This document shows positions 3,001-6,000 of a stretch of 21,898 bases of DNA, in pieces. The number at the start of each line of letters is the position of its first letter. Positions within the stretch are counted from its first letter, which is position 1. A program made the position numbers. The stretch is taken from IMG/VR virus record IMGVR_UViG_2671180524_000011; one strand, written 5' to 3'. The DNA comes from a virus (Duplodnaviria > Heunggongvirae > Uroviricota > Caudoviricetes).

Positions 3001-6000
3001 AATGAGGTCGACAAGCGCATCACTAAATTGGATAAAGAAGGCGGTGAAGCTTTTCTTGCAATGTGGTCAAAAAAAGCGGGAGTTGATGGTATCACTGCGG
3101 GGATCGGGATTGTCGCCGGAAAAGACAGTGAAGGCAGGCCTGTAAGTCAGGTTGCAATTTCTGCGTCGCAGTTGTTTGTCTTTGACCCGAATAATCCGGA
3201 TAACACAGCCTATCCGTTTGCGGTATCAGGTGGCAAGGTAGTGATCCCGAAAGCGATGATTTATGACGCGGTGATTGAAACACTGGTGTCGCGGAAGGTT
3301 GTGGCGGATGAGGTAAAAGCCGGGGTAAGTATCACTTCGCCAGTTATCCGGAGTGCCGTTATTCAGAACGGAAACTTTCAGGTTGATTCTCAGGGTAACC
3401 TGAATATTGGAGGCCTTTTCAGTGTTACGTCACAAGGGCAACTGACAATTCGTTACTCTAATCAGAATGTAGGACTGGTGATCCGCAATGATAAAATTGA
3501 GGTTTATGACCAGAATGGACGACTGGCTGTTCGCATAGGCAGATTACGCTGATCAGGAGGTGAGTATTGGAATACGGTTTTGCCATTTATAACAGAAATA
3601 ACGTTAATGTTACGGGCGTGCTGACTCCAGTATTTTTCCTGGACAGATTTACAGCGGAGTCTGGCTCAAAGACGTACACTAATAAACCCGACGGGAAATC
3701 ATTGCAGGCTGTATGTTGTTTATTTCCCTGGAATAATGTATTTGCGGATCGGAAAGTACCGAAGATAACCATTAATGACAATACGGTGACGTGGTCGAAT
3801 CTTGAGCAGGGTATGGGATCTTATATTTATACATTCTGGGGATAAGTGTTATGTACGGTTTGAGCATTATGAAGCCGGATGGCAGCGTATGGATAAGTCC
3901 AGGTTTTACGCCGCAGTGTCTGATCAACAAAGGCACCATACCGGCGACTGAAAAGTCTTTTTTTAAAACATCAATCCCGTCAGGCAAAAGTTGTTTTTTC
4001 TTTATCAGAACAGAGAAGAAGGCCGATGTCATGTACACGCATGAACAGATTGATGGATATCATGCACTAAGGCTTCATGTAATTGTCAGGGGAACGAACC
4101 CTGGTGTTACGACGGTTTATGCTTTCGCGAATATGGTTACTCCACCTTCTGAGTATGGTATCGCCATGTATAACCCGGACGGTGAGATGATTTATCATGG
4201 CGAAATGATGCTGCTTGACGCGAAGTTAATACCTGTTGATATCAAATTTGAAAAGGACCTTGGATATCCATGCGCAATCATGCCTGCACTGGTCGGGTAT
4301 TATAACTGGAAAAGAACTCCTTATGATCGACCGATTTATACCACATCCACTGGTGCTACAGGAAATAAAATATATTCCTGTGAGCATTATTCCGGTGGTG
4401 CAACATGGGATATTCGAAAGCCGTATATAGATAAGGTCCTGGTTATTAATACATCAGTATATGATTAGTTGAAGCGAGTCTTTAATATTCATTTAAAATG
4501 TCTAAAAAGATGTATTATTAAAAAGTTTAGCGTGTTATCTGAATACAGGATATCTTAAATGAAGAGTATAGCAACACTGGTTGTGTGTGCAATCTCCGGG
4601 ATTGCCTGTGTAAATTTATCTGCACATGCAGCAGAAGGAGAGCATACAATTTCTCTGGGGTATGCGCACTTTCAGTTTCCGGGACTGAAGGATTTTGTAA
4701 AGGATGCGACTGCTCATAACAGGGAGACTTTCAGTCATTTCGTCAACAGAAACTACTTTTCTTCATTGGGCGAATATACAGATGGTCGGGTCAGTGGATA
4801 TGAAGGCAAGGATAAAAATCCACAGGGCATTAATATCAGGTATCGCTACGAGATAACGGATGATTTTGGCGTTATCACCTCTTTTACATGGACGCGTTCT
4901 CTCACTAACTCACAGACATTTATTGATGTGCAGTCAGCCGATCATACCAGGAAGATTAAGAATCCGGCAGCTTCTGCCAGAACGGATATCAGGGCGAATT
5001 ACTGGAGTCTGTTAGCGGGGCCTTCATGGCGGGTTAATCAGTACATGAGTTTATATGCGATGGCAGGGATGGGCGTTGCTAAAGTTAGCGCTGACCTGAA
5101 AATTAAGGACAATATTAACAGTAGTGGCGGATTTTCTGAAAGCAACAGCACGAAAAAAACCTCCCTTGCGTGGGCTGCAGGTGCACAGTTTAACCTGAAT
5201 GAGAGTGTTACACTGGATGTGGCTTACGAAGGTTCCGGCTCTGGCGACTGGCGCACGAGTGGCGTTACTGCTGGCATTGGCCTGAAATTCTGACCTGTAT
5301 CCGGTAACCGTTTACTACCCGCTGTGATGGCGGGTTTTTTATTGCCCGTACAGGGCAAAAACCGTAAATTATGCGTGGGTGCCTTTCGGCTGATGGCTGG
5401 AGGGTGAACCTGAAGGCCTGATGTGGAAAGGCCCCGAGTCAACTTAACGTTAACCCGAGGCCCTAACACTTCGTACCTTAAGCAAGTAGAAGGTTAGCGC
5501 CTCTCTGTAAAAGGAGTCAAGCGCTATGTCGCAAAAATCGCTTATCACCGTCACAATTTGCATGACGGTTATCTTCACCATCTGGATGTTGCACGGTTCA
5601 CTGTGTGAGTTCCGGCTGAATTTGTGGGGAGCGGAGTTTGCGGCGTTCTTACAGTGTAAGCAGTAGGAAAACCGCGACGGGGACGAGAGTCCCCGTCAAC
5701 TGGTTGCTGAGGTTCAGCCGATATGGCACCCGTTTCAGGTGAGAGAATGAACGATAAAATTCTCTGGTATATGCAGCGTGTTGTGAGAAATTCCCGCAAC
5801 CCTGAATTTATGAATGAAGTTAAAGACGCCTGCCTTAAAAAGCAGGCGTTTTGTTTTGAGGCACCTGATGGCTTTTTGGTGCTGCGTTCTGTGCTCAGTG
5901 CTGATGGTATCCCTTATGTTCTGGTGTTGCTGGGCGTGTGTACGGGGAGTAACAGCGTTGAGCGTTACCTGCCGGAGGTGAAGACATTAACCCATCTGGC

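What the first reader, a model, noticed from the sequence alone, without database searches (positions are those of the whole stretch)
5340..5700. Divergent Hok-like toxin ORF missed by the ORF track, just downstream of lom
A 46-aa ORF with a strong Shine-Dalgarno encodes a TM helix followed by SLCEFR...EFAAF, the Hok signature. Its leader resembles that of the second hok locus in this window, and a hairpin follows the stop. This would be a type I toxin-antitoxin (addiction or abortive-infection) module inside the late region.
Basis: partly seen in the sequence, partly recalled or inferred. Interest (0 to 1): 0.5.

Follow-up and report, generated by a model that had tools for sequence, protein, structure and literature searches.

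The report
Second Hok toxin cassette in Stx2 phage
The small gene after lom is a real Hok-family membrane toxin with most of the RNA switch of the classical hok/sok killer system; it is already annotated and catalogued, so it is ordinary, except that it is a second, unstudied copy in a Shiga-toxin phage.

Summary
ORF 5526-5666 (46 aa) matches Pfam Hok/Gef above threshold (33.2 bits, cut-off 22). The window is 100% identical here to Stx2 phages 933W and VT2-Sakai (Sp5).

The ORF sits in a ~355-nt cassette (5377-5731) found in several mobile contexts. These are after lom in Stx phages, after ogr in P2-like prophages, between J and the tail fibre, in O-islands, and as tandem arrays in Salmonella.

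Across 22 distinct copies the RNA shows:
- a covarying 5'-3' fold-back (a tac/fbi analogue);
- a second long-range helix;
- a hairpin sequestering the SD;
- an antisense promoter whose -10 (TAACCT) is the hexamer mutated experimentally for sokW.

The peptide is under purifying selection (median dN/dS 0.26).

No conserved mok frame exists, the Rfam sok model scores below threshold, and the window copy has no terminator of its own.

It is not new. RefSeq names it "Hok/Gef family protein" (WP_000078907.1). A 2025-26 preprint lists the identical peptide (72_1589) among the homologs it tested for toxicity, and it is not one of the three reported as non-toxic. The published hokW-sokW locus is the other hok locus in this window, and its deletion leaves this one intact.

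The parts
5317..5341 (+). lom intrinsic terminator (8-bp stem plus T-run). It marks the upstream boundary of the inserted cassette.
   Evidence: Terminator scan. The cassette promoter begins 2 nt later.
5343..5371 (+). Predicted weak sigma-70 promoter of the hok mRNA: -35 TTGCCC (5343-5348), 17-nt spacer, -10 TAAATT (5366-5371). The start site would be about 5377.
   Evidence: Read from the sequence. The TTGCC / N17 / TAnAnT geometry recurs in most E. coli/Citrobacter copies although flanks differ; the -10-like TAGAAT is also present in Salmonella copies. It matches 8 of 12 consensus positions, so the generic scan (threshold 9) missed it. Not experimentally mapped.
5377..5731 (+). Predicted full-length hok-type mRNA (355 nt). 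This is the block conserved across unrelated genomic contexts.
   Evidence: Homology among contexts runs about 5357-5731. MFE is -153.7 kcal/mol with z = -6.3 against shuffles. RNAalifold finds 86 pairs, 24 with compensatory changes.
5377..5393 (+). tac-like 5' element, GGGUGCC-UUU-CGGCUGA.
   Evidence: Pairs with 5714-5731 in the MFE and consensus folds. After 3' truncation it pairs instead with 5425-5435. Corresponds to hairpin 1 of Rfam RF01794.
5423..5497 (+). Leader ORF (GTG, 24 codons, stop TAG 5495-5497, 13 nt before the hok SD). It may be a degenerate mok substitute. It is not conserved.
   Evidence: Leader ORFs in the 22 homologs are heterogeneous, and none has a start at the canonical mok position.
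5428..5464 (+). Sok-target hairpin in the leader. Its complement forms the Sok-like stem-loop.
   Evidence: Rfam hairpin 2.
5420..5483 (-). Predicted Sok-like antisense RNA of about 60-65 nt. It has a single-stranded 5' tail followed by a 16-bp hairpin. The ends are inferred.
   Evidence: Fold energy -32.5 kcal/mol, z = -5.25. Positioned by the conserved antisense promoter. Cognate duplex -133 kcal/mol against -36 to -60 for cross pairs with hokW/sokW.
5491..5520 (-). Predicted sok-type promoter on the minus strand: -35 TTGACT (5515-5520), 18-nt spacer, -10 TAACCT (5491-5496).
   Evidence: TTGNNN / N17-18 / TA(A/T)CCT is present in 22 of 22 homologs. The same -10 hexamer was mutated in sokW by Takada et al. 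(primer YO-421). It was not found by the generic promoter scan.
5496..5525 (+). Hairpin sequestering the hok Shine-Dalgarno. AGCGC...CUCU pairs with AGGAG...GCGCU. The SD AAGGAG lies at 5511-5516.
   Evidence: Consensus fold columns 123-133 with 140-152; only wobble changes are seen. SD accessibility is 0.42 in the full-length form, 0.52 when truncated and 0.83 when the 5' arm is held open.
5526..5666 (+). hok-family toxin gene, 46 aa. This is Hok cluster 72, peptide 72_1589, RefSeq WP_000078907.1.
   Evidence: Pfam. PHROG phrog_251, E = 2.8e-24. RefSeq annotation. Median dN/dS 0.26; 7 synonymous and 0 nonsynonymous differences against L013. Toxicity testing of the identical peptide in a preprint.
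5675..5698 (+). Conserved hairpin after the stop codon. It is not a + strand terminator because no U-tract follows.
   Evidence: Six of its nine pairs show compensatory changes.
5700..5712 (+). Downstream complementary box (dcb-like). It pairs with 5477-5489, which covers part of the Sok 5'-tail target.
   Evidence: Helix 3: 93.6% of cells paired and 4 pairs with changes on both sides. Present in the MFE fold.
5714..5731 (+). fbi-like 3' element, UCAGCCG-AUAU-GGCACCC. It is the end of the conserved block.
   Evidence: Helices 1 and 2: 98.7% and 93.2% paired, and all 4 pairs of helix 2 have changes on both sides. Homology to other contexts stops here.

Best explanation
This is a second hok/sok-type type I toxin-antitoxin cassette in a 933W/Sp5-type Stx2 prophage. 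It is independent of the published hokW-sokW locus. It sits as a moron between the lom terminator and the next late gene.

Shown here:
- The 46-aa ORF is a Hok/Gef family peptide under purifying selection.
- It lies in a ~355-nt unit that moves as a block between prophages and islands.
- The unit's RNA has a covarying 5'-3' closing helix and a second long-range helix.
- A local hairpin occludes the hok SD.
- An antisense promoter motif is conserved on the minus strand.

Inferred by analogy with hok/sok of plasmid R1 (PMC9841398) and with hokW-sokW (PMC8621323):
1. A weak promoter makes a stable, closed full-length mRNA that is neither translated nor bound by antisense RNA.
2. Slow 3' trimming removes the fbi element.
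3. The 5' tac element re-pairs with GGAAAGGCCCC (5425-5435), which opens the antisense target and the translation signals.
4. A short-lived ~60-nt Sok-like RNA made from the minus strand (about 5483 to 5420) pairs with the leader and inactivates the mRNA.
5. When antisense synthesis stops, Hok is made, inserts in the inner membrane and kills or lyses the cell.

Differences from the paradigm: there is no conserved mok frame, and in this phage context there is no dedicated terminator. The mRNA's 3' end, and the way hok translation is switched on, are therefore uncertain. The cassette also lies inside the late operon, so read-through late transcripts will carry the hok ORF after induction.
For: - Pfam HOK_GEF 33.2 bits against cut-off 22. 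PHROG 'MokW-like host killing', E = 2.8e-24.
- RefSeq annotates matching loci as 'Hok/Gef family protein'; matches occur in 1675 of 5426 complete E. coli genomes.
- All 22 distinct homologs keep an intact 46-47-aa ORF. Median dN/dS is 0.26. The closest relative differs by 7 synonymous and 0 nonsynonymous changes.
- The cassette has the same boundaries in five kinds of context.
- MFE z = -6.3 with 5'-3' pairing. RNAalifold gives 86 pairs, 24 compensatory.
- Long-range helices are 95.2% paired against 28-47% when slid. Eight pairs change on both sides. Covariation score is 0.329 against 0.02-0.09.
- 3'-truncated RNA refolds with the 5' end pairing to 5425-5435, which is Rfam hairpin 1.
- The antisense promoter TTGNNN / N17-18 / TA(A/T)CCT is present in 22 of 22 copies. 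Its -10 is the hexamer mutated in sokW.
- The Sok-like fold has z = -5.25.
- The identical peptide 72_1589 was cloned and is not among the 3 of 45 non-toxic homologs.
Against: - No conserved mok ORF. None of 22 copies has ATG, GTG or TTG at the canonical position after the GAGG that follows the Sok-target hairpin. Leader ORFs are heterogeneous and two copies have none. In R1, mok translation up to the hok SD is mandatory.
- Rfam sok scores 35.6 bits, below the gathering score of 59.
- Both promoters match only 8 of 12 consensus positions and were not called by the scanner.
- There is no terminator after the fbi element in the window, whereas P2-context copies have one about 25 nt downstream.
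- No transcript, antisense RNA or phenotype data for this locus were found.
- Part of the covariation separates only two clades, so it represents few independent events.
Confidence: 0.8

Rival explanations
1. Silent relic. The cassette is a hok locus whose translational coupling device (mok) has decayed, so Hok is never made from it. It persists only by hitch-hiking in the phage late region.
For: - No conserved mok frame. In the window the ATG at 5421 opens only 8 codons, and the GTG 5423 ORF stops before the hok SD.
- There is no own terminator in this context.
- One homolog (L015) is disrupted by an IS between the leader and the ATG. From my own knowledge, not checked here, this resembles the inactivated K-12 hok loci.
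Against: - Median dN/dS is 0.26, and the nearest relative differs by 7 synonymous and 0 nonsynonymous changes.
- All 22 ORFs are intact.
- The RNA helices are kept through compensatory changes.
- The antisense promoter is kept in 22 of 22 copies. Keeping an antidote promoter makes little sense if the toxin cannot be made.
Confidence: 0.12
2. Late-gene lysis helper without antisense control. The ORF is simply a small membrane-damaging moron translated from Q-antiterminated late transcripts. The 'Sok' promoter and fold-back elements would be inherited baggage that no longer regulates it in this phage.
For: - The cassette lies inside the late operon, between lom and a conserved late gene (phrog_610), with no terminator after it.
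- The sister locus hokW promotes lysis and phage release after induction.
Against: - The regulatory RNA elements are as conserved in the lom-adjacent copies (L012, L013) as elsewhere.
- The same cassette sits outside late operons in other places, at the end of P2 prophages next to att, in islands and in tandem arrays.
Confidence: 0.06
3. Chance ORF or chance motif resemblance. The ORF would not be a gene.
For: It is only 46 codons long, and the original 933W and VT2-Sakai records left it unannotated.
Against: - Pfam match above the curated threshold.
- 56 database relatives, nearly all 46 aa.
- Purifying selection.
- Experimental toxicity testing of the identical peptide.
Confidence: 0.01

Closest known systems
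hok/sok/mok of plasmid R1 (parB), the paradigm type I toxin-antitoxin system
   Same: - A small Hok-family membrane toxin.
- An mRNA closed by a 5'-3' tac/fbi-type helix, plus a second long-range helix.
- An alternative 5' hairpin after 3' truncation.
- A leader hairpin that is the antisense target.
- An antisense promoter placed between the target and the hok start, with the hok SD inside its spacer.
- An SD occluded by local structure.
(R1 description in PMC9841398)
   Different: - The peptide is 46 aa rather than 52 and ends in FLQCKQ.
- There is no mok frame starting after the target hairpin or overlapping hok.
- The Rfam model of the leader is matched only below threshold.
- In this phage no terminator follows the fbi element.
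hokW-sokW of Sakai prophage 5 (Takada et al. 2021, PMC8621323); window about 18285-18708, minus strand
   Same: - It is in the same prophage.
- It has the same tac/fbi core (GGGUGC / GCACCC) and the same sok -10 hexamer TAACCT.
- Leader motifs are shared.
- Both are Hok family members.
   Different: - HokW is 51 aa and HokD-like. Its leader matches Rfam sok at 113.5 bits and has an upstream in-frame ATG at the mok position.
- The two antisense tails are unrelated. Cross duplexes score -14 to -17 kcal/mol against -33 to -38 for cognate pairs.
- hokW-sokW has experimental support. This locus has none and was left intact in the published deletion, whose arms lie at 18285-18334 and 18659-18708.
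Hok cluster 72 in the catalogue of Escalera-Maurer et al. (bioRxiv 10.1101/2025.08.07.668861); RefSeq WP_000078907.1 'Hok/Gef family protein'
   Same: The peptide is identical to 72_1589. The P2-type allele 72_1621 is the relative found after ogr. Both were cloned for toxicity assays.
   Different: That study analysed coding sequences only. It did not define mok, Sok or mRNA elements, and it does not discuss the position in Stx phages.
HokA (NCBIfam NF007290, equivalog)
   Same: It is the best-scoring named Hok subfamily. The central ...W M... S L C E ... motif and the AAFL.C tail are similar.
   Different: The score is 38.4 bits against a cut-off of 89, so this is not a HokA orthologue.

Membership tests
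Hok/Gef toxin family (Pfam PF01848) | Profile match at or above the curated gathering score | tested here: met
   33.2 bits against 22, E = 4e-8, profile positions 6-42 of 42. Also phrog_251, E = 2.8e-24.
Hok/Gef toxin family (Pfam PF01848) | Peptide of about 50 aa with an N-terminal hydrophobic helix and the conserved L-C-E motif plus a downstream E | tested here: met
   46 aa. The hydrophobic stretch is LITVTICMTVIFTIWML, and L26-C27-E28 and E37 are present. C27 and E28 are invariant, and L26 and E37 are at least 90% conserved, in the 19-sequence alignment. The conserved positions are as listed in the preprint logo.
Hok/Gef toxin family (Pfam PF01848) | Toxic to E. coli when expressed | not testable with these tools
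   The identical peptide 72_1589 (plasmid LRP157) was tested. The text names only 19_179, 60_1482 and 69_1540 as non-toxic among 45 homologs. This is a preprint, and the assay was over-expression with a synthetic SD.
HokA equivalog (NCBIfam NF007290) and Hok subfamily (NF007279) | Score at or above the curated cut-off | tested here: not met
   38.4 bits against 89, and 22.7 against 73. It is a distinct 46-aa subfamily found in Escherichia, Shigella, Salmonella and Citrobacter.
hok/sok/mok regulatory system (R1 paradigm) | 5' tac element pairs with a 3' fbi element to close the full-length mRNA | tested here: met
   5377-5393 pairs with 5714-5731 in the MFE fold and in the consensus fold. Helices 1 and 2 are 98.7% and 93.2% paired. 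All 4 pairs of helix 2 change on both sides. Slid controls give 28-47%.
hok/sok/mok regulatory system (R1 paradigm) | A second long-range helix between the leader and the 3' UTR (ucb/dcb-type), and refolding after 3' truncation | tested here: met
   5477-5489 pairs with 5700-5712, 93.6% paired, with 4 compensatory pairs. Truncated RNA pairs the 5' end with 5425-5435 instead. This is in silico only, and the correspondence to R1's named boxes is by position.
hok/sok/mok regulatory system (R1 paradigm) | Antisense Sok RNA gene: a promoter on the opposite strand inside the leader, and a short RNA with a free 5' tail plus a hairpin | tested here: inconclusive
   The promoter motif is conserved in 22 of 22 copies, with the same -10 as sokW. 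The fold is good. However, the generic scanner does not call the promoter, and no expression data were found.
hok/sok/mok regulatory system (R1 paradigm) | A mok reading frame that starts just after the Sok-target hairpin, overlaps hok and is translationally coupled to it | tested here: not met
   None of 22 copies has ATG, GTG or TTG within 4-19 nt of the GAGG. Leader ORFs are not conserved. The window has only a 24-codon GTG ORF ending 29 nt before the hok ATG.
hok/sok/mok regulatory system (R1 paradigm) | Match to Rfam RF01794 (hok leader/sok) at the gathering score | tested here: not met
   35.6 bits against 59. E = 2e-6 in a 551-nt search, over the full model length and on the correct strand and position. 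It was absent from the whole-window gathering scan.
hok/sok/mok regulatory system (R1 paradigm) | An own transcription terminator just downstream of the fbi element | tested here: not met
   None in the window after 5731; the next gene's RBS and ATG follow. It is present about 25 nt downstream in P2-context copies.

The most novel reading that the evidence does not exclude
The 46-aa Hok subfamily (cluster 72) may work without mok. Hok translation would be gated only by the fold-back switch and the SD hairpin. Alternatively it could be gated by short, non-conserved leader ORFs that stop at the invariant TAG inside the sok -10, 13 nt before the hok SD. In Stx2 phages this cassette would then be a second module, orthogonal to hokW-sokW, that buffers the modest (two-fold) phage-release defect reported for the hokW-sokW deletion.
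Probability: 0.3. Interest if true: 0.4.

Novelty: already known. Interest (0 to 1): 0.2.

Why it matters
There are three modest reasons.

1. Sp5/933W-type Stx2 phages carry two sequence-divergent hok modules that are predicted not to cross-pair. Only hokW-sokW has been studied. Its deletion strain still contains this locus. The reported two-fold effect on phage release may therefore underestimate what Hok toxins contribute to lysis and to Stx2 phage release.

2. This subfamily keeps the hok RNA switch but lacks a conserved mok frame. That makes it a natural test case for whether mok-type coupling is dispensable.

3. The original reference annotations of 933W and VT2-Sakai omit the gene.

None of this changes how type I toxin-antitoxin systems are understood.

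Tried and rejected
- The generic sigma-70 scan over 5250-5800 found no promoter on either strand. Both candidate promoters were read by eye and by conservation, and each matches 8 of 12 positions.
- The species-representative genome scan returned only 7 loci, three under implausible organism names that are probably contamination. Homologs were therefore collected from E. coli RefSeq hits and by exact-protein look-ups.
- A literature search for hok together with 933W, and for ribosome-profiling or small-gene papers on O157, found no mention of this locus. The EDL933 RNA-seq/Ribo-seq paper lists only Rfam-threshold sok hits, which exclude this locus.
- I looked for mapped transcription start sites near the estimated EDL933 coordinates in the supplements of PMC10469882. 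Nothing was usable, the files were cut when stored, and my coordinate transfer was uncertain.
- I considered HokA orthology and rejected it on the NCBIfam score.
- I considered whether the ATG 5421 or GTG 5423 leader ORF is mok. I rejected it as a conserved feature because the frames and starts differ among the 22 copies and the start is absent in Salmonella copies.
- Thermodynamic accessibility modelling gave only modest shifts: SD 0.42 to 0.52, Sok-tail target 0.27 to 0.54. It is suggestive, not decisive.
- I did not run structure prediction, because a 46-aa single-helix peptide would add nothing.
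Full report
**Where the window comes from.** The region 5294-5722 is 100% identical to Stx-converting phages 933W (AF125520), VT2-Sakai/Sp5 (AP000363, AP000422), Stx2 converting phage I and many others. In all, 198 phage records match. The neighbours are a tail fibre gene, two small membrane-protein genes and lom (4559-5293; Pfam Ail_Lom, E = 1.5e-32). Downstream lie a conserved late gene (phrog_610) and a 2806-aa ORF.

**The observation.** ORF 5526-5666 (+) encodes 46 aa, MSQKSLITVTICMTVIFTIWMLHGSLCEFRLNLWGAEFAAFLQCKQ. AAGGAG lies 9 nt upstream of the ATG.
- It matches Pfam HOK_GEF at 33.2 bits (cut-off 22, E = 4e-8).
- It matches PHROG phrog_251 'MokW-like host killing' at E = 2.8e-24.
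- It falls short of the NCBIfam HokA equivalog (38.4 bits against 89) and of the Hok subfamily model (22.7 against 73). 'Divergent' is therefore accurate.
- A 10-bp hairpin follows the stop at 5675-5698.
- The leader resembles that of the other hok locus at motif level. It matches the Rfam sok/hok-leader model over its full length on the right strand, but only at 35.6 bits against a gathering score of 59. hokW scores 113.5 bits.

**Is it already known?** Yes.
- RefSeq/PGAP annotates matching loci as 'Hok/Gef family protein' (this peptide is WP_000078907.1). Similar DNA is found in 1675 of 5426 complete E. coli genomes, at 99% identity or more in 231 records.
- Some phage records call it 'MokW-like host killing'. 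The original 933W and VT2-Sakai records have no feature there.
- The protein search found 56 relatives, nearly all exactly 46 aa, in Escherichia, Shigella and Salmonella.
- A 2025-26 preprint cataloguing 1264 Hok peptides lists the identical peptide as 72_1589, in high-abundance cluster 72. It was cloned as plasmid LRP157. The text says 42 of 45 tested homologs were toxic and names three non-toxic ones, none of which is 72_1589. That study explicitly did not analyse mok, Sok or mRNA elements.
- The published hokW-sokW system of Sp5 (PMC8621323) is the other locus. HokW is 51 aa, and the paper's primers map to 18285-18334 and 18659-18708. The paper does not mention the lom-adjacent locus, and its deletion leaves that locus intact.

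**A mobile cassette.** Homology between unrelated contexts runs from about 5357 to 5731 and stops there. The same block is found in these places:
- after lom in other 933W-like prophages (L012, L013);
- between gpJ and the tail fibre gene of a lambdoid prophage (L014);
- after ogr at the end of P2-like prophages (L002, L003, L016, L017, L023);
- in an O157 island near the urease genes (L004);
- as tandem arrays of two or three copies about 490-500 bp apart in Salmonella.

One copy (L015) is split by an IS inserted within a few bases upstream of the hok ATG.

**Selection on the peptide.** All 22 distinct copies keep an intact 46-47-codon ORF. Median pairwise dN/dS is 0.26 over 179 pairs. The closest relative (L013) differs by 7 synonymous and 0 nonsynonymous changes.

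**RNA architecture.** I aligned 22 distinct transcript-length units (A2).
- The window unit 5377-5731 folds to -153.7 kcal/mol. Shuffles average -116.2, giving z = -6.3. Its 5' end (GGGUGCC-UUU-CGGCUGA) pairs with its 3' end (UCAGCCG-AUAU-GGCACCC).
- RNAalifold predicts 86 pairs, 24 with compensatory changes.
- For the three long-range helices alone, 95.2% of cells are paired, against 28-47% when the partner is slid by 1-3 columns. Eight pairs change on both sides. The covariation score is 0.329 against 0.02-0.09.
- Caveat: part of this signal separates the E. coli and Salmonella clades, so the number of independent events is small.
- The second long-range helix joins 5477-5489, which is part of the predicted antisense-tail target, to 5700-5712.
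- The hok SD lies in a local hairpin (5496-5525) that varies only by wobble changes.
- The start-codon region pairs with the codons for AEFAAF.
- The post-stop hairpin covaries.
- Removing the last ~32 nt makes the 5' end pair instead with GGAAAGGCCCC (5425-5435), which is hairpin 1 of the Rfam model.

This is the tac/fbi logic described for R1 (PMC9841398).

**The antisense gene.** On the minus strand, TTGACT (5515-5520), an 18-nt spacer and TAACCT (5491-5496) form a promoter-like site.
- The pattern TTGNNN / N17-18 / TA(A/T)CCT is present in all 22 copies.
- TAACCT is the hexamer that Takada et al. altered to silence sokW (primer YO-421 compared with window 18570-18580).
- A transcript starting near 5483 would have a free tail of about 12-20 nt and a 16-bp hairpin (-32.5 kcal/mol, z = -5.25).
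- Its tail target is the most variable part of the leader.
- Predicted cross-pairing with the hokW/sokW partners is much weaker than cognate pairing: -14 to -17 kcal/mol against -33 to -38 for the tails. The two modules are therefore probably orthogonal; this is an inference.
- The generic promoter scanner called neither this promoter nor the hok promoter (TTGCCC / N17 / TAAATT, 5343-5371). Each matches 8 of 12 positions.

**What does not fit.**
- There is no conserved mok frame.
  - At the position where R1 and hokW have the mok start, a few nucleotides after the GAGG that follows the target hairpin, none of the 22 copies has ATG, GTG or TTG.
  - The window has only a GTG ORF (5423-5497, 24 codons) that stops 13 nt before the hok SD, and an 8-codon ATG ORF at 5421.
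  - Other copies have different frames or a 3-codon GTG ORF. Two copies have long ATG-initiated frames that overlap hok, and two have GTG-initiated ones. Two copies have nothing.
  - Many of these frames end at the invariant TAG inside AGGTTAG. A ribosome stopping there could open the anti-SD arm: modelled SD accessibility rises to 0.83. This is speculation.
- In R1, mok translation up to the hok SD is mandatory. Either this subfamily is switched on differently, or some copies are silent.
- The window copy has no terminator after the fbi element. P2-context copies have a canonical one about 25 nt downstream. In the phage the cassette runs straight into the next gene.

**Conclusion.** This is a genuine, divergent Hok-family type I toxin cassette with most of the hok RNA switch and a probable Sok-type antisense gene. 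It is already annotated and catalogued, and the identical peptide is reported as tested for toxicity. Three things remain open:
- whether the antisense RNA and the processed mRNA exist;
- how translation is coupled without mok;
- what the module does for the phage.

By analogy with hokW it may assist lysis and release after induction. Addiction or exclusion roles are untested.

Noticed in passing
window 18450-18499 (inside the hokW coding region, minus strand): A run of 50 N interrupts hokW. The flanks read ...gccctgatcgt[N50]gatcgtcatctg..., so 'gatcgt' occurs on both sides. It looks like a masked stretch or assembly gap rather than real sequence. Without it the ORF reads as the published 51-aa HokW.
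   Followed up: partly
window 21364-21452 (-): Rfam sRNA-Xcc1 (RF02221) matches over its full length at 69.1 bits (gathering score 53, E = 6.5e-11), near the right end of the window.
   Followed up: no
window 5723-6124 versus 5747-6124: RefSeq starts the downstream gene at ATG 5723, which lies inside the conserved fbi element (GATATGGCACCC). That ATG is not conserved in other cassette contexts (GATAAGG...). The PHROG phrog_610 profile is covered end to end by the product starting at 5747, which has its own GGTGAGAG Shine-Dalgarno. 5747 is therefore the likelier start.
   Followed up: partly
L015:236-1686 (E. coli MB06101): An IS (annotated 'integrase core domain' transposase) is inserted within a few bases upstream of the hok ATG of a P2-context copy. 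From my own knowledge, this resembles the IS-inactivated hok loci described for E. coli K-12.
   Followed up: partly
L020-L022 (three copies), L026-L027 (two copies); Salmonella enterica: There are tandem arrays of the 46-aa hok cassette spaced about 490-500 bp apart. The copies have diverged in the antisense-tail target region. In L027/L028 a YafO toxin gene lies immediately upstream.
   Followed up: partly
window 8891-17311 (+): A single 2806-aa ORF lies here. RefSeq annotates the equivalent gene as 'LPD38 domain-containing protein'. It ends about 1 kb before the hokW locus.
   Followed up: no
window about 7333-7584 (+); L029:18340-18591: RefSeq annotates an 83-aa product here as 'bacteriocin', within the block of late genes of unknown function.
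   Followed up: no
L005, L006, L008 (genome-contig hits): Near-identical copies of this enterobacterial cassette sit on short contigs of assemblies labelled Xanthomonas pisi, Planococcaceae and Vagococcus. Contamination of those assemblies with E. coli or Salmonella DNA is the most likely cause.
   Followed up: no
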